Shown piece by piece: positions 37,970-47,631 of a stretch of DNA of 64,000 nt (position 1 is its first letter; every line of letters starts with the position of its first letter). The DNA is from Candidatus Magasanikiibacteriota bacterium (lineage in GTDB: Bacteria; Patescibacteriota; Patescibacteriia; Magasanikbacterales; UBA922), in assembly GCA_041665025.1 (NCBI GenBank), contig JBAYJP010000002.1, positions 196,820-260,819 of the forward strand, written 5' to 3'. Below the pieces are notes generated by a model, which made no database searches, had not been told where the DNA came from, and was given only the letters and a program-made list of their open reading frames with translations. The position numbers were made by a program, and so were the translations under genes.

Positions 37970-38074
37970 AGAAAATGTGTTTCTATAGTATACAGAGAAA
38001 TCTTATTGTACCAAAAAATGTATAAAAATTATAGCCCAGTAGGGTGTGAGGTGTGATATGTAATATGTATTTTG

Positions 38075-38160
38075 TCAATATGTTTTATTTACGACGCAGG
38101 TGAGAGAAAAGTAAATTCGCATTTACTTTTCCGAGCCGAGGAGTAACTACAGGATAATAT
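38075..38160 (-). repeat. ~95-nt repeat element copy B (see 8838-8937); GNRA hairpin gtaaat-GCGA-atttac with compensatory pair change
   Basis: Hand alignment ~90% identity to copy A. Confidence 0.7.
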
Positions 38161-38285
38161 ACCTCGCAGCTTGGTGCTAAAATTAATTTTTTATAAATTA
38201 CTGTAATACCTCGTGAGCTTGCTCTGAGGATTCTTTATATAAATAAAAACACTTTTTTAGGTGTTTATTATTTATGATAGTTTTT

Positions 38286-38333
<48 letters not shown>

Positions 38334-38356
38334 ACTTTTCTCGATCACGTATAGAG

Positions 38357-38443
38357 CGGAGGGAGCGAGATTTGAACTCGCGAACCAATTTCTTGGTTAA
38401 TGCTTTTCGAGAGCACCCCATTCAACCGCTCTGGCATCCCTCC
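38357..38443 (-). tRNA. tRNA-Ser (anticodon CGA), type II
   Basis: Manual fold: acceptor GGAGGGA/TCCCTCC, discriminator G, anticodon stem GTGCT/AGCAT, loop CTCGAAA, long variable arm, T-arm GCGAG-TTCAAAT-CTCGC. Confidence 0.8.
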
Positions 38444-38551
38444 GTTCTTCTACGTGACGAGGTGGCACCTTAAACCAACTCAGACACCACTCCATGCCTG
38501 GCTATTTTAGTATAGAATTAAGACAAAATCAATGGTTAAAAAAACGGAATG

Positions 38552-39184
38552 TTATTTCCGTCTTTTTTTAATTTCTTTTAATACGTTTTCTAGTTTGATT
38601 CCTTTTTGTACTAGCAACGTGAATAGATGATAAAGTACGTCGACACTTTCTTCAGCAGTTCGTTTTTTAGTTTCTTCTCTAACTGCTCGGCAGACTTCTT
38701 CAGCTTCTTCCATTATCTTTTCTTCAATTTTGGGTAGTCCTTTGGAAAATAGGTAAGTGGTATAGGATTTTTTAGGCATATTTTTTTTGCGATCCTGAAT
38801 CACACTAAATAATTCAGCGATAAAGCCAATGTCAGGTTGGGATTTTTTGTTTATCCCTTTTGGTTGTGGTATGTCAAAACATGATTCAGTAAGAAGATGA
38901 CAGGTCGGTCCTGCCGGTTTTACTTTTACGAGTATAGTGTCTGCGTCACAATCTATTTTGATATCTTTTACAAATAAATAGTTTTTGCTTTCTTCCCCTT
39001 TCATCCAAAGACATTTTTTTGTCCTGCTATAAAACCAGACTTTTTGTGTGTGTATGGTTTTTCTAAATGCATCTTCATTCATAAAACCCAACATAAGAAC
39101 ACGATTTGTGGAGATGTCCTGAATAATAGCTGGCGCAAGCCCACTCATTTTTTTGAAATTAATTTTTTTGAGTATTGTCTTCAT
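38552..39184 (-). CDS. hisIE: Bifunctional phosphoribosyl-AMP cyclohydrolase / phosphoribosyl-ATP pyrophosphatase
   Basis: HisI 'LAPAIIQD...FYSRTKKCLWMKGEES...DCDADTILVKVKPAGPTCHLLTESCF'; HisE-like C-terminus; ATGA overlap with upstream gene. Confidence 0.85.
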   Translation of the reverse strand: MKTILKKINFKKMSGLAPAIIQDISTNRVLMLGFMNEDAFRKTIHTQKVWFYSRTKKCLWMKGEESKNYLFVKDIKIDCDADTILVKVKPAGPTCHLLTESCFDIPQPKGINKKSQPDIGFIAELFSVIQDRKKNMPKKSYTTYLFSKGLPKIEEKIMEEAEEVCRAVREETKKRTAEESVDVLYHLFTLLVQKGIKLENVLKEIKKRRK

Positions 39185-40653
39185 AGCCGTATGGGCAGGT
39201 TATTGTTCTTTAGATATCGTTTCAATTTTTTGATTTTGATTTTTTCATAATGAAAAACCGTTGCTGCCAATACTGCATCTACGTTGGTTTGTTTCAATAC
39301 ATCGAGGAAATCTTTTTTTGTTCCAGCACCGCTCGAAGCAATTACCGGTATACGTACTGACCGAGAAATTTTGTTGAGAAGTTCTATGTCAAATCCTTTT
39401 TTTGTACCGTCTCTATCCAAACTATTCACGAGTAATTCGCCCGCACCTAGTTTTTCCATTTTTTTAGCAAATGTAATTGCATTTATGTCAGTCTTTTGTT
39501 TACCTCCTCGTATATATATCATCCATATTTTCCCAGTTTTTTTTGCATCAATAGAAATTACTAAACATTGCGAGCCGTATTTTTGTGAAATACTTTTTAC
39601 TAATGCTGGATTAAGAACTGCAGCAGTACATAGTGAAACCTTATCTGCTCCAGCGTTTAATAAACATTTTACGTCATTAATATCTGCTATCCCACCCCCA
39701 ACGGTAAAAGGTATGTTTATATTTTTCGCGATTTTTTCTACCAGTTCACGGAGAGTTTTTCTTTTTTCAGATGTCGCCGTTATATCCAAAAATACGAGTT
39801 CATCCGCCCCGCTTTGGCTATACAATTGAGCTAATTTCACTGCATCGCCTGCATCTGTCAGTTTTGTGAAGTGGATGCCTTTGACTACCTTTCCATCTTT
39901 TACATCGAGACAGGGGATTATTCTCTTTGTCAGATTATTTGGAGAAAAAATGGGCAATATTTTTTCTAGGCTTAATTTTCCTTCATACAAAGTTTTTCCC
40001 AAGACTACGCCATAGACTCCAAGTTTCTCCAGTTTTTTTATATCACCAATTGTGGTAATTCCTCCGGCGGCGATTATCTTAAAGCCATATTTCAGTATCT
40101 TTTTTATTAATGGTAAGTTTGGTCCGGTAAGTGTTCCATCTTTTTTAATATCAGTAACTAAAATATAGTTAACGCCGATCTGTTTTAATACATTCAGGAA
40201 CTTGTTCAGGGATACGTTGTTTGTTTTCTGCCATCCTTTGGACATAAGTACATTATTTTTGACATCGACAGCTATAATTATTCTTTCAGTGCCATATTTT
40301 TTTATTAGTTTAGGTATCAGATTATTTTTTTCAATAGCTGAAGTACCAATAATGACTTTGTCTGTACCCGAATCTAGCAGTTGGACTGCATCTTTGTATG
40401 TTCTAATGCCGCCGCCTATTTGGACAGGCAGACCGATTTTTTTTGTCATATTTATTATGAGTTTTTTGTTTACGGGGCGACCCATTTGAGCGCCTTCTAA
40501 ATCAATAATATGGAGGCATGAAGCACCAGCATTTTTGAATTCCATTGCTTTGCTCATAGGATTGCGGGTATATGTTTTAACACAAGAATAGTCGCCTTGT
40601 GTAAGACGAACGCATGTTCCCTTATAAATATCAATCGCAGGAATAATTATCAT
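39181..40653 (-). CDS. hisAF: Fused HisA (ProFAR isomerase) - HisF (IGP synthase cyclase subunit) protein
   Basis: N-half 'MIIIPAIDIYKGTCVRLTQGDY...QIGGGIRT'; C-half 'RIIPCLDVKDGKVVKGIHF...ELVFLDITAT...VGGGIADI'; single uninterrupted 490-aa ORF. Confidence 0.8.
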   Translation of the reverse strand: MIIIPAIDIYKGTCVRLTQGDYSCVKTYTRNPMSKAMEFKNAGASCLHIIDLEGAQMGRPVNKKLIINMTKKIGLPVQIGGGIRTYKDAVQLLDSGTDKVIIGTSAIEKNNLIPKLIKKYGTERIIIAVDVKNNVLMSKGWQKTNNVSLNKFLNVLKQIGVNYILVTDIKKDGTLTGPNLPLIKKILKYGFKIIAAGGITTIGDIKKLEKLGVYGVVLGKTLYEGKLSLEKILPIFSPNNLTKRIIPCLDVKDGKVVKGIHFTKLTDAGDAVKLAQLYSQSGADELVFLDITATSEKRKTLRELVEKIAKNINIPFTVGGGIADINDVKCLLNAGADKVSLCTAAVLNPALVKSISQKYGSQCLVISIDAKKTGKIWMIYIRGGKQKTDINAITFAKKMEKLGAGELLVNSLDRDGTKKGFDIELLNKISRSVRIPVIASSGAGTKKDFLDVLKQTNVDAVLAATVFHYEKIKIKKLKRYLKNNNLPIRL

Positions 40654-41234
40654 AGTACGCAAAAATTATGTAATAACCTCAAACCAGCTTTTCCCGATTT
40701 TTCCGGATGAAATTGGACCGCGTAGAAATTATTTTTTTGTATAATTGAGGGAAAACGTATTCCATAATCAGTTAGTCCAAGAATATCTTGTTCAGGTGAT
40801 TGAAAATAGTATGAATGCACAAAATAAAAATACTCATTATTTTTCAAATCATTTAGTAATGGCGACTTTGTTTTTATTTGTACACTATTCCAGCCTATAT
40901 GCGGAACTTTTAGTCTGCCGGCAAATTTATTTACTTTTCCGGGTATTATTGAGAGACACTCTGTTTCATCTTCCTCAGAATAATCAGCCAATAGCTGCAT
41001 GCCAAGGCAAATACCAAGAAAAGGGACATTGATATTTTTAATAATTGTATTAATGCTTCGTCTTTTCAATTCTCTCATTGCACTTCCGGCTCTGCCCTGT
41101 CCCGGAAAAATTATTTTTTTTGCATTCTTAATTTTGTTAGGGTCAGAAGTTACAGAGCATTCAAACCCAAGATGCCCTATTGCATTTTTTAGAGAGCCAA
41201 TATTGCTGGCATTGTAATCGATAATGGTAATCAT
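40650..41234 (-). CDS. hisH: Imidazole glycerol phosphate synthase, glutamine amidotransferase subunit
   Basis: 'GICLGMQLL', 'HIGWN', 'FYFVHSY'. Confidence 0.9.
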   Translation of the reverse strand: MITIIDYNASNIGSLKNAIGHLGFECSVTSDPNKIKNAKKIIFPGQGRAGSAMRELKRRSINTIIKNINVPFLGICLGMQLLADYSEEDETECLSIIPGKVNKFAGRLKVPHIGWNSVQIKTKSPLLNDLKNNEYFYFVHSYYFQSPEQDILGLTDYGIRFPSIIQKNNFYAVQFHPEKSGKAGLRLLHNFCVL

Positions 41235-41821
41235 AGTGTTCCTTTGGTTGTTGGTAATATATTCTTCATGCGCGGGTCGTTTTCTGCTGCCATTTTAAGA
41301 GTTCGGGCAAAAGCTTTAAAAATAGCCTCTACCATGTGGTGTTCATTGCGTCCGTATTTTATATTGATATGGATATTGGCTTGTAGGTTGTCTGCAACTG
41401 AGCGGAAAAAATCTTCAAACAGTTCAGTAGACATATCACCAATTTTTTCTCGTCTAAATTTAACATTCCAAACCACATAAGATCTTCCACCAATATCAAT
41501 CGCGACCTCGGCTAACGTTTCATCCATAGGCAATAAAAATCCATAACGTTGGATCCCTTTTTTGTTGCCCAGTGCTTTTTTTATGGCCTGTCCTAGACAG
41601 ATTCCAATATCTTCAACTGTGTGGTGTTCATCGACGTCCAAATCTCCTTTGCTGATTATGTTTATGTCGATTAATGACTGCTTTGATAATAATTCAAGCA
41701 TGTGGTCGAAAAAACCAATGCCCGTTTGTATATTATATTTTCCTTTGCCATCCAAATTTACTGATAGGGAGATATCTGTTTCACTTGTCTCCCGTTTTAT
41801 TTTAGATTTTCGTTGTTTCAT
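41231..41821 (-). CDS. hisB: Imidazoleglycerol-phosphate dehydratase
   Basis: 'GIGFFDHMLELLSKQSLIDINI', 'DVDEHHTVEDIGICLGQA'. Confidence 0.9.
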   Translation of the reverse strand: MKQRKSKIKRETSETDISLSVNLDGKGKYNIQTGIGFFDHMLELLSKQSLIDINIISKGDLDVDEHHTVEDIGICLGQAIKKALGNKKGIQRYGFLLPMDETLAEVAIDIGGRSYVVWNVKFRREKIGDMSTELFEDFFRSVADNLQANIHINIKYGRNEHHMVEAIFKAFARTLKMAAENDPRMKNILPTTKGTL

Positions 41822-41826
41822 ATGGG

Positions 41827-42336
41827 TTATAGTTTGAAATTCTCAAGCGTGAACTTCTGGTTCGTCTCTGTCTGTAGGAATCTGAGCCCTAGATTTTTTG
41901 CCAGCAATCTATCACTCTCTCTGTCTCCACAAACAAATGAAAGTTCTTTGTCTACGTCACGATTTCTTAAAAAATTATCAAATAATTTTGTCTTTGGTTT
42001 TCTACAATTGCAATTATCATCGGGCATGTGAGGACATAGAAGTAATGTTTCAAATGATACTCCATTCTGTTTGAATATCTGTACTAGTTGTTTTTGTACC
42101 GTGTCAAAACATTCTTGCGGGTATATGGTTGTGCCGAGTCCGTCCTGGTTGCTTGTCATTATTAATGTATATTGAGTGTCAATAATTTTGTGTAATCCGT
42201 CAATGACGCCGGGAAGAATACGGAGTTTTTTAATGGCATCAATTTGGTAGGGGATATCACCTCGTTTTGTTTCCTTAGGCGTTGGTTCGTAAATCAATGT
42301 TCCATCGCGATCTATGAATGCATATTTAGTTTTCAT
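41827..42336 (-). CDS. hisN: Histidinol-phosphatase, HAD-IIIA (HisB-N type)
   Basis: 'YAFIDRDGTLI', 'CNCRKPK' as in E. coli HisB N-domain. Confidence 0.75.
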   Translation of the reverse strand: MKTKYAFIDRDGTLIYEPTPKETKRGDIPYQIDAIKKLRILPGVIDGLHKIIDTQYTLIMTSNQDGLGTTIYPQECFDTVQKQLVQIFKQNGVSFETLLLCPHMPDDNCNCRKPKTKLFDNFLRNRDVDKELSFVCGDRESDRLLAKNLGLRFLQTETNQKFTLENFKL

Positions 42337-42346
42337 ACCACTGATT

Positions 42347-43411
42347 TTACTGATTAATTAGACTTTTGTACGTTTCAATAAATTGTTTAGTCTGACCCAC
42401 GGTGCCCATGGAAACTCTCACTGTATTATCAAACCCATATCCCTTGCGTGGGCGGATAAGAAATCCTCGTTCTCTTAGGTTGTTAAATATCTGAGCAGGA
42501 TTTTTTGGTCTAAACAATATAAAATGTGCTGAGCTCGGGTAAAACATTACCCCGTTTTCTCTAAAGAATTGTTCAAGCATTGGTTTGGATACTTTCATAA
42601 CTTGCTGTATGTAGATTTTTAGTGGTTGTAGGTTTTGTAATACTGCTCTTGCCGTATATAACCCAGCCATATTTATGTCATATGGTCCTCGTACCTTCGC
42701 CATCTCCCTAATCAATAGTACTGGCGCAATTACATAGCCAATACGCAGTGCAGCGAGTCCAAATGCTTTGGAAAATGTCCTGGTAATAACCAAATTTGGA
42801 TATTTTTCTATAAGAGGGATGGCGGTTATTCCGGAATATTCTGCATAAGCTTCGTCCACGTATACCAAGCCATTTTTCAATTTTTTTAATATACGTTCAA
42901 TATCATCCGGGGACACTTGTGTGCCTGTTGGGTTATTTGGGTTACAGACCACGACAAGTTTTGTTTTATCTGTTATGGCATTTAGCACATCTTGAAGCGG
43001 GAATGAACCATTGTCCGTATTATACGTTGGAGTTATGATCTTGTTTCCACATAGCTCGGCGCATTGATAGAACATAGCAAAACTTGGTGAAGGTATGATG
43101 ACTTCGTCGCCTGGTTTGGTGAATGTTTTAAATATAATATCTATACCTTGATCAGAGCCATTGATTATCATAATATTTTTTGGTCGCGTACTTGCATATT
43201 GGGCAATTCGTTCGTTTATGTCCCCATATTCCGGATAGCGTTGGAATACATTTTCTTGCGTAAGTTTTTCAAGAGCCTTTTTTACTACATCACCATAAGG
43301 TGTTGTCCGTTCATTGAAATCCAATAAACAACCATCAAAATAACGCCTGCCTTCAATTGGCGGATTATATGGATTCATAACTTGTATGTTTTGGTTTGCC
43401 AAGTTTTTCAT
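42347..43411 (-). CDS. hisC: Histidinol-phosphate aminotransferase
   Basis: Class II aminotransferase, 'TRTFSKAFGLAALRIGY' PLP-Lys region, operon context. Confidence 0.85.
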   Translation of the reverse strand: MKNLANQNIQVMNPYNPPIEGRRYFDGCLLDFNERTTPYGDVVKKALEKLTQENVFQRYPEYGDINERIAQYASTRPKNIMIINGSDQGIDIIFKTFTKPGDEVIIPSPSFAMFYQCAELCGNKIITPTYNTDNGSFPLQDVLNAITDKTKLVVVCNPNNPTGTQVSPDDIERILKKLKNGLVYVDEAYAEYSGITAIPLIEKYPNLVITRTFSKAFGLAALRIGYVIAPVLLIREMAKVRGPYDINMAGLYTARAVLQNLQPLKIYIQQVMKVSKPMLEQFFRENGVMFYPSSAHFILFRPKNPAQIFNNLRERGFLIRPRKGYGFDNTVRVSMGTVGQTKQFIETYKSLINQ

Positions 43412-44547
43412 ATTTGTTTCAAGAACCTTGTTTCAATACTATCTGCATGGGCATTGAGTCCTTCGGCCCGTGCAATTGTAGTAATAGTATTTTTTATCTT
43501 TTTTAATCCTTGTTTAGTTACTCTCTGTACTTCTATTTTTTTGCCAAAGTCTTCCACACTTAAAGCTCCATATGTTTTTGACCATCCGGCAGTTGGCAAT
43601 GTATGATTTGGTCCCGTGACATAGTCGCCAGCTGAGACTGGAGAATAATTTCCCAAAAATATTGATCCAGCATTTATTATTTTTGATAATATGTGTTTTT
43701 CATTTTTTGCCATAATTTCTAAGTGTTCGGGCGCAATCTCATTGACCAGTTTTATCGCTTCAGTCATGTTTGGAACTAATTTAACTTTTCCAATTTTTAT
43801 TTTTTGTGCAAGTTTTTTATCCCACGTAATGAGAATTGCAACAGAATCGGGCCCATGCTCCAGTTGAGATGCTAGATCTTTTTCAATAAATTTAGGGTTT
43901 GCAGTTTCATCGGCAAGGATAGCAATCTCTGACGGACCTGCAGGCATATCAATCGCAACCGTGTTGCTTACTTGTATTTTTGCCTCAGTCACATACTTGT
44001 TTCCTGGTCCAAAAATTTTGTAAACCTGCGGAATAGTTTTTGTTCCAAAAGCCATCGCTGCAATAGCCTGTGCTCCCCCGACTTGGTATATATTTTTTAT
44101 TCCGACTATATCAGCTGCCACAAGTGTTACTGCGGCAATGGGCGGAGGAGAACACATAATAATATCGCTGCAGCCGGCAAGCTTTGCAGGGATGCCGAGC
44201 ATTAAGACCGTTGAAGGATATTTTGCTCGTCCCCCCGGGATGTATAATCCGACTTTTTCTATTGGTCTAAATTCACGCCAGCAGGTAATCCCCGGACTTG
44301 TTTGGATTGGACGTTCGCGAACAGATAAGATATTTTTATTGAATTTAGTAATATTTTTTATGGCTACTTTAAGTGATCTCATTATTTCAGTATCAACTTT
44401 TTTGTATGCATCTTGAATTTGTGTTTGAGAAATTTTAAGAGTATCAATTTTTGCATTATTAAATTTGAGCGCATATTCTTCTAATGCCGTGTCACCATTT
44501 TTTTTGACGTTTTCAATTATCTGTTTGACGGTCTCTTGTGTTGTCAT
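43408..44547 (-). CDS. hisD: Histidinol dehydrogenase
   Basis: 'GGAQAIAAMAFGT', 'ILADETANP', 'DYVTGPNHTLPT' motifs. Confidence 0.85.
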   Translation of the reverse strand: MTTQETVKQIIENVKKNGDTALEEYALKFNNAKIDTLKISQTQIQDAYKKVDTEIMRSLKVAIKNITKFNKNILSVRERPIQTSPGITCWREFRPIEKVGLYIPGGRAKYPSTVLMLGIPAKLAGCSDIIMCSPPPIAAVTLVAADIVGIKNIYQVGGAQAIAAMAFGTKTIPQVYKIFGPGNKYVTEAKIQVSNTVAIDMPAGPSEIAILADETANPKFIEKDLASQLEHGPDSVAILITWDKKLAQKIKIGKVKLVPNMTEAIKLVNEIAPEHLEIMAKNEKHILSKIINAGSIFLGNYSPVSAGDYVTGPNHTLPTAGWSKTYGALSVEDFGKKIEVQRVTKQGLKKIKNTITTIARAEGLNAHADSIETRFLKQI

Positions 44548-45160
44548 ATTTTTTTATTAATTCTAGGAATTCTTTCTTTTTTTCATTTGCATAGGGGCTT
44601 TCTATGAGTATGGCTTGGGAATCCATAACTTTGTCTATGATAATAAGTCCATTATCTCTAAGAGTTTTGCCGGTCTGGGTTATATCACATACCGCATCGG
44701 CCATACCAAGGGACGGAGCTATTTCCACTGATCCGGAGAGTTCTACTATGTTGGCATAAATGCCTTGTTGTTTTAGAAACCTTTTAAAGATATTAGGGTA
44801 GGATGTTGCAATAGTTTTATTTTGTAATTGTCGTACCGATGTTATATCACTGTTTTGTGGTACCGCGATTACCAATGTACAGTCGCTGAATGTAAGATTT
44901 TTTGAAATGCACGTGGTTTCCGCCCGTTCTTCCAGAACATCTCTTCCAATAATTCCAAAATCAACTAGATTTTTGTTGATATATGTCGGAATATCATCAT
45001 CACGCAGAAAGATTATTTGATTTCCTGTCTTGCGACATGTGGTAGATAGTTTTTTATCTTCCATATCAAAATCAAAACCAAGGTTTCTAAGAAATAATAA
45101 GCTTTCATCACGCAGATGACCTTTTTTCTGTATAGCAATTTTTAGATTTTGTTGTTGCAT
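44513..45160 (-). CDS. hisG: ATP phosphoribosyltransferase, short form (HisGS)
   Basis: 215 aa, 'LKIAIQKKGHL', 'DFGIIGRDVLEE', lacks C-terminal regulatory domain. Confidence 0.8.
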   Translation of the reverse strand: MQQQNLKIAIQKKGHLRDESLLFLRNLGFDFDMEDKKLSTTCRKTGNQIIFLRDDDIPTYINKNLVDFGIIGRDVLEERAETTCISKNLTFSDCTLVIAVPQNSDITSVRQLQNKTIATSYPNIFKRFLKQQGIYANIVELSGSVEIAPSLGMADAVCDITQTGKTLRDNGLIIIDKVMDSQAILIESPYANEKKKEFLELIKKYDNTRDRQTDN

Positions 45161-45164
45161 ATGA

Positions 45165-45581
45165 TTATGTGATCATGCAAGAAATTGAATAAATATTTTG
45201 TCCCTTCTTTTGAATTTTTGTGATTGTAAATGTGCCAATCTCCTTTGTATTTTTTACGTGCGGGCCTGCACACGCCAATCTATTGAATCCTTCAATTTCA
45301 TATATAGATATGTTTGATACAGATTCGGGAATTAGGCTTACATCTGCTATTTTTTCAGCCCCAATTCTGGGCAGAATATAATTGATTACGTTATACCCTT
45401 TTTCTATCTCTGCATTTACTTCATCTTGAAGTTTTTGTGCTAAGTTACGGATATCAGTTATACATTCATAGACAACTCGGAACGAACCTTTTTTAAATTC
45501 CAGTGCCTTGCTTGTTATTTCATATTGATTTTTAAGTACGGTGTAGAGAATATGCTCGGCAGTATGAAGACGTGATTTCAT
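45165..45581 (-). CDS. AlaX-S-like tRNA-editing domain protein (aaRS second additional domain)
   Basis: 'HTAEHIL' and 'CAGPHV' zinc motifs. Confidence 0.6.
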   Translation of the reverse strand: MKSRLHTAEHILYTVLKNQYEITSKALEFKKGSFRVVYECITDIRNLAQKLQDEVNAEIEKGYNVINYILPRIGAEKIADVSLIPESVSNISIYEIEGFNRLACAGPHVKNTKEIGTFTITKIQKKGQNIYSISCMIT

Positions 45582-45610
45582 AAGATAAGATTAGGAGAAA
45601 TCTCCATGGG

Positions 45611-45683
45611 GGTGCCCAATGGGAGTTGAACCCATATTCTCAGTACCACAAACTGATGTGCTGGCCGTTGCACCATGAGCACC
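45611..45683 (-). tRNA. tRNA-His (anticodon GTG) with encoded G-1
   Basis: Manual fold: G-1 + GTGCTCA acceptor (one G-U), D-stem GTGC/GCAC, anticodon stem TCAGT/ACTGA loop TTGTGGT, T-arm ATGGG-TTCAACT-CCCAT, discriminator C. Confidence 0.75.
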
Positions 45684-45710
45684 GCCATAGAGATTTCTAG
45701 TAGAATAAAC

Positions 45711-45736
45711 AAAAAATCGCCTATTATAGCGATTTT
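45711..45736. terminator. Bidirectional intrinsic terminator (aaaaaatcgc-ctattata-gcgatttt)
   Basis: 6-bp stem with A/T tracts both sides. Confidence 0.55.
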
Positions 45737-45908
45737 GACCTCAAAGTAAAACTACCCGTGGTAGATTACCCGAGGTCGTTTGTATGGTGTGATATGTTGT
45801 AAGAATTAGTTAGGTTCATAGTGTTATAATGTATTAATACAATAATACATTTATATAATTTTGTCAAATAGGGAATGTGGATAAAAAATGACCATTTTAA
45901 TCATCTGT

Positions 45909-46190
45909 CTATTTTTCATTTTTCAAGGCCTTTCTGTAGCCGCCTTCCCCATGATTCAACCAATGCGCGATCCGTGTGACTGTGGTCGTACTCAAGCCTG
46001 TATTCCGGGCTATATCTCTATAGGGTACACCTTTGTCTATCATGTGTACTGCTTCCCAGCGCCGTGACATTTCTTCGAGTTCTTCAAGTGTACAAAGGTC
46101 GCGCAAAAAATTAAGCATATCATCTTCTTTTTTCAGAGAAAGAAATGCTTTGGCTAATTTTTTAAGTTGTGAATTTTTCCAGTTTTTCAT
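45909..46190 (-). CDS. TrpR-like YerC/YecD family DNA-binding protein
   Basis: 93 aa, 'RDIARNTGLSTTTVTRIAHWL' HTH. Confidence 0.6.
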   Translation of the reverse strand: MKNWKNSQLKKLAKAFLSLKKEDDMLNFLRDLCTLEELEEMSRRWEAVHMIDKGVPYRDIARNTGLSTTTVTRIAHWLNHGEGGYRKALKNEK

Positions 46191-47631
46191 ATGATGAAAT
46201 TAGTAACAATGCAATAATCCCCCAAAACAAAACCGCTAAATCATTTTTCATATAGGGTGTGTCAACGAGTCCCATGACAAGCATAATTATAATACTGCTT
46301 ATAAGAAAATAATGTAAGGTCGGGAGTTTTTTGTATTTTTTAAATAGTGAATATTGGATGTTAGATATTGAAATGAGAATCCAGATAAAACCAAATAGAC
46401 CAACCAAGCCAATATTAATCCATAAGGAGAGAAATAAATTGTGTTGAAGATGAAATATTTCGATGTTTTCTCCATTCACTTGTGTGTGGTAAGGCACGAT
46501 ACGATCCACATAAGACCTTAGACCTGCGCCAAGTATGGGGCGATCAGACAAGAGCGCAAGTGCTTCGCCCCACATAGCAACTCTGATCTGGCCAGAACGA
46601 TCTTGGGCAAAGACTTCTTGTTTTATATTCCCAAGTTGTGGAATACTTAGTATGCTTATTATACCTACAAGACCAATAATAACTGAGGGCCAGCGAGTTT
46701 TTTTATATATAAGAAGCAGAGTACCAATTCCCGCGGCAAGGCCAATGAGTCCACCCGTGCTTTTAGCATAGTATATAGCGAGTGGAGCTGTGATAAGATA
46801 TAAGATACAAGATACAAATAATAACCAAGTTCCAAATTCAAAATTTTTAAATTTGTGATGTGGTGATTGAGATTTATTTGCCCTTAGGCCCGGGTCTAGG
46901 GTTTCTTGTTTCTTGGTTATTAATTTTAAGTAGTAGGTTTTTGCCAAATAAATTGCCAGTGGCACAATCGGTGCTAAAAATAATGCCACTGCATTTGGAT
47001 ATCCATACCACCCGGTCACACGATAACTATTACCGTTTTGCCAAAAGCTCCACGGCACCATCCAGCCGGTGAAGTGTTGGTATATTGCGAAAACAGATGT
47101 CGCTAGACCACATAGGATAAAAGATAAAACGATGATATTGGTCGTTTTGGAAAAAAGGGAATAGGGATTAGGGAACGGGAGATTTTGTCTTTCCGAGTTA
47201 GACGATTCTTTTTGTTCCTTGTTCCCTGGTCTTTGATCTTTTATGGTCGTAACCAACATCAAGAACACTAAAAAAGGCTCTATGTAAAACGCTTTCCATT
47301 CCCCGGCGGCTTCTTTTAAATGTAGTGAAGAGAATACCGCGACTGTAGCTCCGAGTAAGAATACGCTAGAGGCAATAAAGAAGGTTTTGTATTTTAAGAT
47401 TAAAGATTTAAGATTGAAGATTATTGAGCGATTATATTTTATTAGCCAAATAATACATAGAATCCAGATCATCATTTCAAGAAGAGTCGTCGGAATGAGG
47501 CCAATGTCGAACCTGATGAGATAGGTGGGTAATAGGAGAAATAACAAAAATAGGCCGTGGTGGAAACGGTATAAAGTGATAAACGCAAAAAATAAGAAAA
47601 ACAGTATGTACAAAGAGATCATATCACCCAT
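46162..47631 (-). CDS. O-antigen ligase/polymerase (Wzy)-like polytopic membrane protein
   Basis: 489 aa, >10 TM helices with large loop, adjacent flippase. Confidence 0.6.
   Translation of the reverse strand: MGDMISLYILFFLFFAFITLYRFHHGLFLLFLLLPTYLIRFDIGLIPTTLLEMMIWILCIIWLIKYNRSIIFNLKSLILKYKTFFIASSVFLLGATVAVFSSLHLKEAAGEWKAFYIEPFLVFLMLVTTIKDQRPGNKEQKESSNSERQNLPFPNPYSLFSKTTNIIVLSFILCGLATSVFAIYQHFTGWMVPWSFWQNGNSYRVTGWYGYPNAVALFLAPIVPLAIYLAKTYYLKLITKKQETLDPGLRANKSQSPHHKFKNFEFGTWLLFVSCILYLITAPLAIYYAKSTGGLIGLAAGIGTLLLIYKKTRWPSVIIGLVGIISILSIPQLGNIKQEVFAQDRSGQIRVAMWGEALALLSDRPILGAGLRSYVDRIVPYHTQVNGENIEIFHLQHNLFLSLWINIGLVGLFGFIWILISISNIQYSLFKKYKKLPTLHYFLISSIIIMLVMGLVDTPYMKNDLAVLFWGIIALLLISSYEKLEKFTT

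What the first reader, a model, noticed from the sequence alone, without database searches (positions are those of the whole stretch)
38552..45683. Complete enteric-order histidine operon (hisG-D-C-N-B-H-AF-IE) with tRNA-His and an AlaX-like editing protein immediately upstream, in a genome that otherwise looks biosynthetically minimal
All nine his functions are present, tightly packed with ATGA-type overlaps, in the same order as the E. coli hisGDCBHAFI operon. The phosphatase and dehydratase are separate (hisN, hisB). If the organism is CPR/Patescibacteria as its gene content suggests, full amino-acid biosynthesis operons are unusual, so acquisition by transfer is plausible. tRNA-His(GTG) lies 28 nt upstream of the AlaX-like gene on the same strand, giving tRNA-His - editing protein - his operon. 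That arrangement invites a regulatory link; enteric his attenuation senses tRNA-His charging.
Basis: partly seen in the sequence, partly recalled or inferred. Interest (0 to 1): 0.6.

Follow-up and report, generated by a model that had tools for sequence, protein, structure and literature searches.

The report
Regulated histidine operon in a CPR bacterium
A tiny-genome (CPR) bacterium carries a complete histidine-synthesis operon that was inherited within its own lineage, not borrowed from gut bacteria, and that appears to be controlled by a histidine repressor plus a short His-codon leader, with the tRNA-His gene and a small tRNA-editing-like gene placed behind that control.

Summary
On the minus strand, 45683-38552 holds tRNA-His, a 138-aa AlaX-S-like gene, then hisG(short)-hisD-hisC-HolPase-hisB-hisH-hisAF-hisIE. 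All enzyme genes pass NCBIfam cut-offs and are packed with 4-nt overlaps.

Corrections: "hisN" is the HAD-type HisB-N-terminal phosphatase, not the IMPase HisN. HisA and HisF form one 490-aa protein. HisG lacks its regulatory domain.

The organism is a Candidatus Magasanikbacteria MAG (CPR). Recent transfer from enterics is not supported. More than 120 CPR protein clusters share the HisAF fusion. The six CPR operons sampled form one clade (bootstrap 100), sister to Bacteroidota-type operons. A Rifle Magasanikbacteria scaffold has the same operon with syntenic flanks.

It contains:
- a TrpR-family HisR gene;
- a promoter overlapped by tandem 20-bp palindromes;
- a 17-codon leader with two adjacent His codons;
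- a covarying hairpin that holds the stop codon;
- a terminator.

This module recurs in ten related loci. The only two known homologues of the AlaX-like protein also sit beside a tRNA-His, between this terminator and hisG.

No antiterminator is predicted, so the switching mechanism is unresolved. I class it as a new variant of a known kind, of moderate interest.

The parts
45909..46190 (-). hisR-like gene: 93-aa TrpR-family (YerC/YecD) protein, the putative histidine repressor
   Evidence: NCBIfam TIGR02531 scores 66.3 bits against a cut-off of 42.2. The best PDB match is 3G1C (E 1.7e-15, full length), the protein PMC9413887 calls HisR. [quoted passage not shown] It is fused to HisG in L088 and in at least 15 clusters.
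45876..45884 (-). TTATCCACA box (identical to the DnaA-box consensus) 8 bp upstream of the -35; role unknown
   Evidence: Read. TTRTCCACA-N8-TTGAC occurs only in his-promoter loci among the 209 loci held. Within the window the 9-mer count is not above chance.
45839..45867 (-). Promoter-like site TTGACA-17-TATTGT
   Evidence: 10 of 12 matches. The -35 and the TAnTGT -10 are conserved in position in five other leaders.
45822..45849 (-). Putative tandem HisR operators: two overlapping 20-bp palindromes TGTAnTA-N6-TAnTACA, offset by 8 bp and covering the -10
   Evidence: 3 matches in the window against 0.25 expected, with no shuffle reaching 3; two of the three lie here. The same 28-bp arrangement occurs in L086, L126, L128, L168, L190, L208 and L211. 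It matches the published proteobacterial HisR/TrpR-type motif (PMC9413887).
45766..45819 (-). Leader ORF MNLTNSYNISHHTNDLG*; His codons CAC CAT at 45789-45784
   Evidence: Tandem His codons occur at the same relative place in 7 of 9 related leaders, with synonymous changes. Chance of HH in one such ORF is about 0.003-0.02.
45737..45777 (-). Hairpin P1: starts 6 nt after the second His codon, and its 5' arm contains the leader stop codon
   Evidence: RNAfold, (z = -5.6). The base-anchored pair table shows compensatory changes between loci. Geometry is identical in 7 loci and similar in L087 and L211.
45705..45736 (-). Intrinsic terminator AAAATCGCT-ATAAT-AGGCGATTTTTTG, abutting P1
   Evidence: It is near-identical in L086 (independent of the motif search) and has a compensatory change in L208.
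45723..45750 (-). Alternative promoter-like site TTTACT-16-TATAAT lying inside P1 and the terminator loop; probably not functional
   Evidence: It is not conserved in L208 (loop CCATAAGGG), L126 or L128.
45607..45683 (-). tRNA-His(GUG) with encoded G-1:C73
   Evidence: ARAGORN; Rfam 58 bits; acceptor and D-arm register read.
45165..45581 (-). AlaX-S-like protein (138 aa), putative zinc-dependent aminoacyl-tRNA deacylase
   Evidence: Pfam tRNA_SAD 43.9 bits. Matches PDB AlaX-S 1v4p by sequence (E 4e-5) and by fold (TM 0.75, model pLDDT 67). HxxxH and CxxxH are invariant. Only two homologues were found, both between the his terminator and hisG and beside a tRNA-His.
44513..45160 (-). hisG, short form (215 aa, no C-terminal regulatory domain)
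   Evidence: No HisZ or HisS in the window.
43408..44547 (-). hisD (379 aa; 21-aa internal deletion and short N-terminus)
42347..43411 (-). hisC
   Evidence: TIGR01141, 281.3 bits against 276.55.
41827..42336 (-). Free-standing HAD-IIIA histidinol-phosphatase (HisB-N-terminal type)
   Evidence: TIGR01261, 174 bits against 140. It is free-standing also in L211, fused to HisB in L084-L086, and fused to HisC in L083 and L087.
41231..41821 (-). hisB (imidazoleglycerol-phosphate dehydratase)
40650..41234 (-). hisH
39181..40653 (-). hisA-hisF fusion (490 aa: HisA residues ~3-235, ~10-residue linker, HisF ~244-490)
   Evidence: At least 120 full-length homologous clusters. The linker was read.
38552..39184 (-). 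hisIE
38538..38561 (-). Terminator hairpin ACGGAAATAACATTCCGT plus T run, overlapping the hisIE stop codon (end of the operon)

Best explanation
This is the CPR-lineage version of the histidine biosynthesis operon, in a Candidatus Magasanikbacteria genome. It was inherited within that lineage, not recently imported.

Shown:
- Eight genes supply all steps from PRPP to histidine. Lineage-typical features are a covalent HisA-HisF fusion, HisIE, short-form HisG and a HAD-type histidinol-phosphatase.

Inferred from conservation and from the published HisR family:
- Transcription starts at TTGACA-17-TATTGT (45867-45839).
- It is repressed when the TrpR-family HisR protein, encoded just upstream, binds histidine and occupies two overlapping 20-bp palindromes that cover the -10.

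Inferred, with the switch step unresolved:
- Transcripts that start must pass a leader: a 17-codon ORF with two adjacent His codons, a hairpin (P1) that begins 6 nt after them and encloses the stop codon, and an abutting intrinsic terminator.
- A ribosome waiting for His-tRNA at the His codons would sit at the foot of an intact P1.
- A ribosome that reads on to the stop codon must unwind P1.
- I propose that this difference sets how many polymerases read through the terminator, so that low charged tRNA-His raises expression.

Consequence:
- The first products behind the terminator are tRNA-His and an AlaX-S-like deacylase, followed by the his enzymes.
- Histidine supply and the tRNA-His side of its use would therefore be co-regulated.
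- In sister genomes the same slot holds hisS.
For: Enzyme identities.

Organism and contig.

Lineage inheritance:
- At least 120 HisAF fusion clusters at 52-83% identity, named Patescibacteria, Peregrinibacteria or Magasanikbacteria where named.
- The same gene order in L083-L088 and L210/L211.
- For HisC, HisB, HisH and the phosphatase, nearly all CPR loci that carry the gene match the window's protein better than any non-CPR locus; L083 is the exception for HisC and the phosphatase. For HisG, HisD, HisAF and HisIE the two ranges overlap.
- NJ tree of HisB+HisH+HisA+HisF: CPR clade 100/100, window+L086 96/100, sister to the Bacteroidota-type clade 87/100.
- Flank synteny with Magasanikbacteria RIFOXYD2_FULL_41_14.
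- No G+C anomaly.

HisR:
- TIGR02531 above cut-off.
- Best PDB match 3G1C.
- Palindromes enriched in the window and conserved in position over the -10 in eight loci.
- A TTTA-N6-TAAA variant occurs in L083, L087 and L088.
- The motif types and histidine co-repression are published (PMC9413887).
- Recurrent HisR-HisG fusions tie the two proteins together.

Leader:
- HH codons are conserved with synonymous changes.
- HHH occurs in L087, which was fetched through a protein, not through the terminator motif.
- P1 starts at nt 13-14 from the first His nucleotide in 7/7 loci, with the stop codon inside its 5' arm and with covarying pairs.
- z-scores are -5.6 and -4.0.

tRNA-His and the AlaX-like gene belong to the unit:
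-.
- tRNA-His(-like) genes start 5-10 nt after the U tract in L126 and L128.
Against: - No antiterminator pairing is predicted in any of seven leaders, with or without ribosome masks, even when the terminator arms are barred from pairing with each other. Read-through control is therefore inferred from anatomy only.
- The leader has only two His codons and no Shine-Dalgarno sequence; its start is about 13 nt from the presumed transcription start.
- Two relatives have a single His at the site (L126 CAG-CAT, L211 CAT-CAA).
- Four of the leaders were found by searching for the terminator motif, so terminator conservation there is by construction.
- A TTTACT-16-TATAAT site inside the terminator could give tRNA-His its own promoter in this genome.
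- Short HisG normally works with HisZ. None is in the window, and the rest of the genome was not available.
- Sampling for the tree was accidental (80 loci from one pattern scan), contains no Enterobacteriaceae, and used NJ only.
- How common his operons are across all Magasanikbacteria was not measured.
Confidence: 0.7

Rival explanations
1. The operon was acquired by horizontal transfer into an otherwise non-biosynthetic CPR genome, for example from an enteric or other proteobacterial donor.
For: - Gene order equals E. coli hisGDCBHAFI.
- The HAD-type phosphatase is the HisB-N type known from gamma-proteobacteria and Bacteroidota.
- The CPR clade is sister to Bacteroidota-type operons (87/100), so an ancient exchange between those lineages cannot be excluded.
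- No other amino-acid pathway appears in the 64 kb.
Against: - CPR his genes form a 100/100 clade, far from the gamma- and beta-proteobacteria sampled.
- Derived features (HisAF fusion, HisR, leader) are shared across many CPR contigs at 45-70% identity, which implies long residence.
- Flanks are syntenic with another Magasanikbacteria genome.
- G+C is the same as in the flanks.
- No mobile-element genes lie next to the operon.
Confidence: 0.07
2. The tRNA-His and AlaX-like genes are ordinary housekeeping genes that merely happen to lie upstream. tRNA-His is transcribed from its own promoter (TTTACT-16-TATAAT, 45750-45723), and there is no functional link to histidine control.
For: - A 10-of-12 promoter match with a perfect TATAAT lies in the terminator loop.
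- The closest relatives with context (L086, L168) have no tRNA or alaX between terminator and hisG.
- Making a probably single-copy tRNA gene repressible by histidine seems risky for the cell.
Against: - The AlaX-like protein has only two homologues in 5.8 billion sequences. Both lie between the same terminator and hisG, beside a tRNA-His, once in the swapped order.
- The TATAAT is absent in L208, whose P1 is identical.
- In L126 and L128 a tRNA-His(-like) gene starts 5-10 nt after the U tract, which leaves no room for a promoter.
- In sister genomes the slot holds hisS, another His-tRNA function.
Confidence: 0.2
3. The small ORF and hairpins are not a sensor. P1 plus the terminator is simply a leaky terminator or insulator after hisR, and all regulation comes from HisR alone.
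For: - No alternative antiterminator structure was found.
- There are only two His codons and no Shine-Dalgarno sequence.
- L088 and L083 manage without such a leader.
Against: - The promoter and operator lie upstream of the leader and downstream of hisR's own terminator in L086, L126, L128, L168, L208 and L211. The structure therefore sits inside the his transcript.
- HH is kept with synonymous changes while the neighbouring codons drift.
- The 6-nt spacing from the His codons to P1, and the stop codon inside P1, are invariant.
- L087 has HHH with the same geometry.
Confidence: 0.15
4. The operon is decaying. Truncated HisD and short HisG without HisZ mean that histidine is no longer made.
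For: - HisD is 379 aa with a unique 21-aa deletion.
- No HisZ or HisS is in the window.
- hisC only just reaches its cut-off.
Against: - All ORFs are intact, with tight overlaps.
- HisD keeps the Gln/His/Asp/His zinc residues and the Glu-His catalytic residues.
- L086 shares the short N-terminus.
- Short HisG without an adjacent HisZ is the rule in this CPR clade.
- HisG-short enzymes have some activity alone (my recollection of the Psychrobacter HisGS work, not checked here).
Confidence: 0.08

Closest known systems
E. coli / Salmonella hisGDCBHAFI operon with the hisL attenuator
   Same: Same gene order. HisIE is fused and the phosphatase is of the HAD type. A translated leader with His codons is followed by an intrinsic terminator.
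   Different: - Here the phosphatase and the dehydratase are separate genes.
- HisA and HisF are fused.
- HisG is the short form.
- The leader has 2 His codons, not 7.
- No alternative antiterminator is predicted, and Rfam His_leader does not match.
- There is a protein repressor (HisR), and a tRNA-His gene and an AlaX-like gene lie inside the unit.
E. coli trp operon dual control (TrpR repressor plus a trpL leader with two Trp codons)
   Same: A TrpR-family repressor with tandem overlapping palindromic operators over the -10, combined with a short leader peptide carrying two adjacent regulatory codons and a terminator.
   Different: The amino acid sensed is histidine. The repressor is the YerC/HisR branch of the family. 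The 1:2/2:3/3:4 alternative pairing of trpL is not present here.
HisR regulon of Firmicutes, Actinobacteria, Proteobacteria and Synergistetes (Ashniev et al. 2022, PMC9413887)
   Same: A YerC/TrpR-family protein next to his genes. The operators are 20-bp palindromes, and both published motif flavours occur among the CPR loci.
   Different: CPR/Patescibacteria are not among the phyla reported there. Here the operators are tandem (8-bp offset) and are combined with a leader peptide. In some CPR the repressor domain is fused to HisG.
Bacteroidota-type his operon (Del Duca et al. 2021, PMC8305728)
   Same: Nearest non-CPR relatives in the tree, with the same order and the same HAD-type phosphatase.
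   Different: The paper was listed in my search but not read. No HisAF fusion and no HisR gene were detected in the Bacteroidota loci I held.
AlaX-S trans-editing protein (Pyrococcus horikoshii PH0574; PDB 1v4p, 1wnu)
   Same: Same fold over the full length (TM 0.75). Same HxxxH and CxxxH zinc motif. Similar size.
   Different: About 22% identity. It is below the NCBIfam AlaXM cut-off. It is known only from three loci, always with tRNA-His and hisG. Its substrate is unknown.
HisZ-HisG(short) ATP-phosphoribosyltransferase
   Same: HisG here is the short catalytic form.
   Different: No HisZ was found. The gene immediately upstream of hisG is hisS (a true HisRS by NCBIfam) in several relatives, a fused HisR domain in others, and the AlaX-like gene here.

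Membership tests
Histidine biosynthesis operon (complete pathway) | All ten catalytic functions are present (G, E, I, A, H, F, B-dehydratase, C, phosphatase, D) | tested here: met
   Each gene is at or above the NCBIfam curated cut-off. Pfam agrees.
Histidine biosynthesis operon (complete pathway) | The genes form one transcription unit | tested here: inconclusive
   Overlapping or 4-10-nt junctions, no convincing internal terminator, and a terminator after hisIE. No transcript data.
HisN (IMPase-family histidinol-phosphatase) | Inositol-monophosphatase fold (PF00459) | tested here: not met
   The protein matches HAD-IIIA / TIGR01261 hisB_Nterm, not PF00459.
Long-form HisG | C-terminal histidine-binding regulatory domain | tested here: not met
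   215 aa, with only PF01634 over residues 53-203.
HisG(short)-HisZ system | A HisZ (HisRS paralogue) gene is present | tested here: inconclusive
   No HisS/HisZ-like sequence in the 64-kb window. The rest of the genome was not available. The adjacent genes in relatives score as hisS, not hisZ.
HisR (TrpR-family histidine repressor) | YerC/YecD-type TrpR-family protein | tested here: met
   TIGR02531 scores 66.3 against 42.2. Best PDB match is 3G1C, E 1.7e-15.
HisR (TrpR-family histidine repressor) | 20-bp palindromic site in the promoter region of his genes | tested here: met
   TGTATTA-N6-TAATACA at 45849-45830 over the -10, with a second site offset by 8 bp. Conserved in eight loci.
HisR (TrpR-family histidine repressor) | Histidine-dependent DNA binding | not testable with these tools
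   Needs EMSA with purified protein.
Classical ribosome-mediated transcription attenuator | Leader ORF with regulatory codons for the pathway's amino acid | tested here: met
   CAC CAT at codons 11-12. HH or HHH occurs in 7 of 9 related leaders.
Classical ribosome-mediated transcription attenuator | Intrinsic terminator before the first structural gene | tested here: met
   45736-45705.
Classical ribosome-mediated transcription attenuator | Mutually exclusive antiterminator pairing | tested here: not met
   None appears in seven leaders under any ribosome mask or constraint.
T-box riboswitch / Rfam His_leader | Match to the covariance model | tested here: not met
   No hit at E <= 1 in 38000-46500, nor in the related loci.
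AlaX trans-editing proteins | AlaRS-editing-domain fold with HxxxH and CxxxH zinc ligands | tested here: met
   PF07973. Foldseek match to 1v4p, TM 0.75 (the model is only pLDDT 67). H6, H10, C104 and H108 are invariant.
AlaX trans-editing proteins | Equivalog-level sequence match (AlaXM NF040865) | tested here: not met
   82 bits against a cut-off of 300, covering only model positions 96-226.
AlaX trans-editing proteins | Deacylation of Ser- or Gly-tRNA-Ala | not testable with these tools
   Needs an enzyme assay.
Bacterial tRNA-His | GUG anticodon and an encoded G-1 paired with C73 | tested here: met
   plus the register read.

The most novel reading that the evidence does not exclude
The leader may be a new kind of ribosome-gated attenuator that has no antiterminator. 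In this reading, the position of the ribosome decides terminator efficiency. The ribosome is either parked at the His codons at the foot of an intact P1, or it is unwinding P1 to reach the stop codon inside it. One possible means is that P1 loops out 40 nt, so that a stalled ribosome lies next to the polymerase.

The first regulated products would then be the tRNA-His itself and an AlaX-like enzyme that acts on tRNA-His, or on HisG in place of HisZ. That would close a feedback loop on charged tRNA-His.
Probability: 0.12. Interest if true: 0.8.

Novelty: new variant of a known kind. Interest (0 to 1): 0.5.

Why it matters
CPR bacteria are usually described as unable to make amino acids. This locus shows that one whole pathway is kept and finely regulated in several CPR lineages, so histidine autonomy matters to them.

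The regulatory region joins two textbook devices, a TrpR-type repressor and a two-codon leader peptide. The combination had not, in the literature I could search, been reported for histidine or for CPR, and its RNA anatomy does not fit the classical switching model.

The natural covalent HisA-HisF fusion joins two consecutive enzymes that are the standard example of TIM-barrel duplication. The his-gene fusion reviews I checked do not list hisA among the fused genes.

A tRNA gene and an editing-like protein placed behind an attenuator that senses that same tRNA's charging is an unusual arrangement and can be tested.

Tried and rejected
1. The genome-contig scan with an alignment of HisAF fusions. 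No CPR genome was returned. I reused these loci as outgroups for the tree.

2. My first reading of the tRNA put position 1 at 45683 and suggested there was no G-1. The Rfam register and the U8/D-stem positions show that 45683 is G-1, so this is a normal bacterial tRNA-His.

3. Rfam at permissive thresholds found no T-box, His leader or other riboswitch.

4. I searched for an antiterminator by four routes: MFE with ribosome masks, folding truncated before the 3' arm, constraints that bar the terminator arms from pairing with each other, and inspection by eye. Only locus-specific, inconsistent complementarities turned up, for example AAAAUCGCC in the L168 ORF.

5. RNAalifold on a MAFFT alignment of the leaders misaligned P1. 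I replaced it with a base-anchored pair table.

6. The metagenome scan for the terminator motif gave 119 loci, of which only four were relevant.

7. The 176-aa ORF in L211 is not related to the AlaX-like protein.

8. ARAGORN in intron mode did not call the split tRNA near 38400.

9. Literature searches for CPR histidine biosynthesis and for 'HisAF' found nothing specific.

Full report
**1. What is there**

The minus strand carries, in order:
- tRNA-His(GTG), 45683-45607
- a 138-aa tRNA_SAD/AlaX-like gene, 45581-45165
- hisG, 45160-44513
- hisD, 44547-43408
- hisC, 43411-42347
- a HAD-IIIA histidinol-phosphatase, 42336-41827
- hisB, 41821-41231
- hisH, 41234-40650
- one 490-codon hisA-hisF ORF, 40653-39181
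- hisIE, 39184-38552

A hairpin plus T run overlaps the hisIE stop codon and ends the unit. Every enzyme reaches its NCBIfam equivalog cut-off. Junctions are 4-nt overlaps or gaps of at most 10 nt.

- The phosphatase is the HisB-N-terminal type (TIGR01261), not the IMPase enzyme normally called HisN.
- HisA and HisF are covalently fused.
- HisG is the 215-aa short form, without the regulatory domain.
- HisD lacks about 30 N-terminal residues and has a private 21-aa deletion. It keeps the zinc and catalytic residues.

The tRNA is a normal bacterial tRNA-His with encoded G-1:C73.

**2. Whose genome**

The window is part of a 440-kb metagenome contig. Identical RpoB, RecA, FtsH, HisG and other proteins are deposited at NCBI as 'MAG: Candidatus Magasanikbacteria bacterium'. 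The CPR guess is therefore right.

The rest of the window encodes:
- NrdJ, FtsH, a pilus ATPase and ThrRS
- AdoHcy hydrolase and a PfkB kinase
- DNA glycosylases
- an ADP-forming acyl-CoA synthetase
- RecA, FtsK and RpoB

It encodes no other amino-acid pathway. This covers only 64 kb of the genome.

**3. Transferred or inherited?**

- The HisAF fusion has at least 120 full-length homologous clusters at 52-83% identity. Where named, they come from Patescibacteria, Peregrinibacteria and an ACD groundwater bacterium; one is labelled an Actinobacteria MAG.
- Contigs carrying such fusions show the same operon. The shared order is a TrpR-family gene, often hisS, then short hisG, hisD, hisC, the HAD phosphatase, hisB, hisH, hisAF and hisIE. 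The phosphatase is free, fused to HisB, or fused to HisC.
- For HisC, HisB, HisH and the phosphatase, nearly every CPR locus that carries the gene matches the window's protein better than any of about 80 non-CPR loci does; L083 is the exception for HisC and the phosphatase. For HisG, HisD, HisAF and HisIE the two ranges overlap.
- An NJ tree of HisB+HisH+HisA+HisF (862 columns, 64 taxa) puts the six CPR operons in one clade (100/100 bootstrap). The window pairs with L086 (96/100). The CPR clade is sister to a Bacteroidota-type clade (87/100) and distant from beta- and gamma-proteobacteria and Firmicutes.
- A Rifle scaffold whose HisG is named Candidatus Magasanikbacteria RIFOXYD2_FULL_41_14 has the same operon, including the free-standing 169-aa phosphatase. 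PfkB, AdoHcy hydrolase and a Wzy-like gene lie nearby, as in the window.
- G+C is uniform across the region.

Recent transfer, and an enteric donor in particular, is therefore not supported. An ancient exchange with a Bacteroidota-like lineage cannot be excluded. The tree sampling was accidental and used NJ only.

**4.

*The repressor gene.* Directly upstream lies a 93-aa YerC/YecD TrpR-family gene. It scores above the TIGR02531 cut-off. Its best PDB match is 3G1C, the structure that Ashniev et al. 2022 assign to HisR. They showed in vitro that HisR is a histidine-dependent repressor of his genes and that it uses 20-bp palindromes (PMC9413887).

*The promoter and operators.* Between this gene and the tRNA there is a TTGACA-17-TATTGT promoter. 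TGTATTA-ttgtat-TAATACA covers its -10, and a second copy is offset by 8 bp. The pattern gives 3 hits in the window against 0.25 expected, and two of the three lie here.

*The leader RNA.* Three elements follow the promoter (z = -5.6):
- a 17-codon ORF, MNLTNSYNISHHTNDLG*
- a hairpin, P1
- an intrinsic terminator

*Conservation.* The closest relative with context, L086, has the same elements. Its His codons differ only synonymously and its terminator is almost identical. A motif scan added L126, L128, L168 and L190. Protein-based look-ups added L208, L209, L211 and L087. Across these loci:
- HH or HHH is present in 7 of 9 readable leaders. The other two have CAG-CAT or CAT-CAA at the same spot.
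- P1 always starts 13-14 nt from the first His nucleotide.
- The stop codon always lies in the 5' arm of P1.
- P1 pairs covary. The second pair from the base, for example, is A-U, G-C, C-G or U-A.
- Chance of HH in one such ORF is about 0.003-0.02.

L083, L087 and L088 carry the other published operator flavour, TTTA-N6-TAAA.

**5. How it probably works**

*Repression.* Repression by HisR plus histidine at the operators follows from family membership, motif match and position. It is an inference, but a strong one.

*The leader.* Its anatomy argues for sensing of His-tRNA by a translating ribosome. However, no antiterminator can be found by folding with ribosome masks, by co-transcriptional truncation or by constraints on the terminator arms. 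The classical model therefore fails one defining test.

*What the geometry suggests.* A ribosome's 3' edge lies about 12-13 nt beyond the first nucleotide of the A-site codon (textbook toeprint distances, my knowledge). A ribosome waiting at the His codons would therefore stop exactly at the foot of an intact P1. One that reads on must melt P1 to reach the stop codon. I propose that the state of P1 modulates the abutting terminator. I cannot say how, and I give the attenuation function itself about even odds.

**6. tRNA-His and the AlaX-like gene**

- In L086 and L168, hisG follows the terminator directly. In the window the tRNA and the AlaX-like gene sit in between, beginning just after the conserved TCTATG motif that, in L086, ends in hisG's start codon.
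- The AlaX-like protein has the AlaX-S fold. Evidence is a sequence match to PDB 1v4p at E 4e-5 and a Foldseek TM of 0.75 on a pLDDT-67 model.
- Its HxxxH and CxxxH motifs are invariant.
- Only two homologues were found among 5.8 billion sequences. In L208 the order is leader, terminator, tRNA-His, alaX, hisG. In L209 it is terminator, alaX, tRNA-His, hisG. The pair is therefore conserved with the operon even though the order changed.
- In L126 and L128 a tRNA-His(-like) gene begins 5-10 nt after the U tract.
- In L083, L087, L210/L211 and two JGI contigs the same slot holds a true hisS, which overlaps hisG in each case.
- The position behind the attenuator is thus repeatedly used for His-tRNA functions.
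- The TATAAT in the window's terminator loop is not conserved in L208, so an independent tRNA promoter is the less likely reading.
- The biochemical role of the AlaX-like protein is unknown.

**7. Comparison and novelty**

The operon itself is an ordinary, already deposited his operon. The following appear new relative to the literature I could search:
- HisR control in CPR.
- Its combination with a two-His leader whose RNA lacks an antiterminator.
- The embedding of tRNA-His and an AlaX-S-like gene in the unit.
- The lineage-wide HisA-HisF fusion. The his-fusion reviews list fusions of hisD, N, B, H, F, I and E only (PMC10138114, PMC1963479). A search for 'HisAF' found nothing relevant.
- Recurrent HisR-HisG fusions.

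I rate this a new variant of a known kind, with interest 0.5.

Noticed in passing
window 38493-38286 (-), enclosing tRNA-Ser(CGA) 38443-38356: A second, type-II (Ser-like, G73, CCA-encoded) tRNA appears to be split in its anticodon loop by an insert of about 120 nt. That insert contains the complete tRNA-Ser(CGA) gene. Joining the 5' half (38493-~38458) and the 3' half (~38338-38286) in silico gives an 89-nt tRNA that ARAGORN accepts. One junction gives Ser(CGA). Intron mode does not call it. Origin and function are unknown.
   Followed up: partly
window 45884-45876 (-); also L086, L088, L126, L128, L168, L190, L208, L211: A 9-mer identical to the DnaA-box consensus (TTATCCACA, or TTGTCCACA in two loci) sits 8-9 bp upstream of the -35 of the his promoter in nine CPR loci. 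The pattern TTRTCCACA-N8-TTGAC hits no other of the 209 loci held. A 2023 paper claims that his attenuation in E. coli depends on DnaA (PMC10989985). Whether DnaA binds here is unknown.
   Followed up: partly
L088 5148-6041; proteins P0137-P0148, P0150, P0157: The HisR (TrpR-family) domain is fused to the N-terminus of short-form HisG in at least 15 diverged protein clusters (43-53% identity). This suggests either a bifunctional enzyme-repressor or use of the histidine-binding domain as an allosteric module in place of HisZ.
   Followed up: partly
L083 7338-8840, L087 6445-8037; P0082, P0095, P0156: Other unusual his fusions occur in CPR relatives: HisC-HolPase (500-530 aa), HisAF-IE (687 aa), HisH-AF (665 aa) and IMPase-HisG (512 aa).
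   Followed up: no
L126 5439-5512; L128 451-378: The tRNA-His-like genes right after the his terminator have non-canonical elbows: T loop UGCAAAU/UGCAAAA and no GG in the D loop. They are followed by non-his genes (an unknown 228-aa protein, DUF6282 and a PfkB kinase). It is unclear whether they are functional tRNAs or tRNA-like regulatory RNAs.
   Followed up: partly
L190 1242-2759: The same HisR operator, HH leader and terminator module precedes a PNP_UDP-family phosphorylase and a HAD hydrolase instead of his genes.
   Followed up: no
L211 3435-3965: In Magasanikbacteria RIFOXYD2_FULL_41_14 the 'leader' is a 176-codon ORF with no Pfam match. It still ends ...HQRNCPW* with its stop codon inside P1.
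   Followed up: partly
window 39181-40653 (-): The NCBI annotation of this MAG lists only a 250-aa HisF (MFA6427326.1, starting MTKRIIPCLDV). In the window the ORF is open for 490 codons. The HisA half may be unannotated or annotated differently there.
   Followed up: no
L083-L087, L210/L211, two JGI contigs: In many CPR his operons the first gene is a genuine hisS (TIGR00442, about 400 bits) whose end overlaps short hisG. If it is the only HisRS gene in the genome, it would be under his-operon control. It might also double as a HisZ-like partner of HisG.
   Followed up: no
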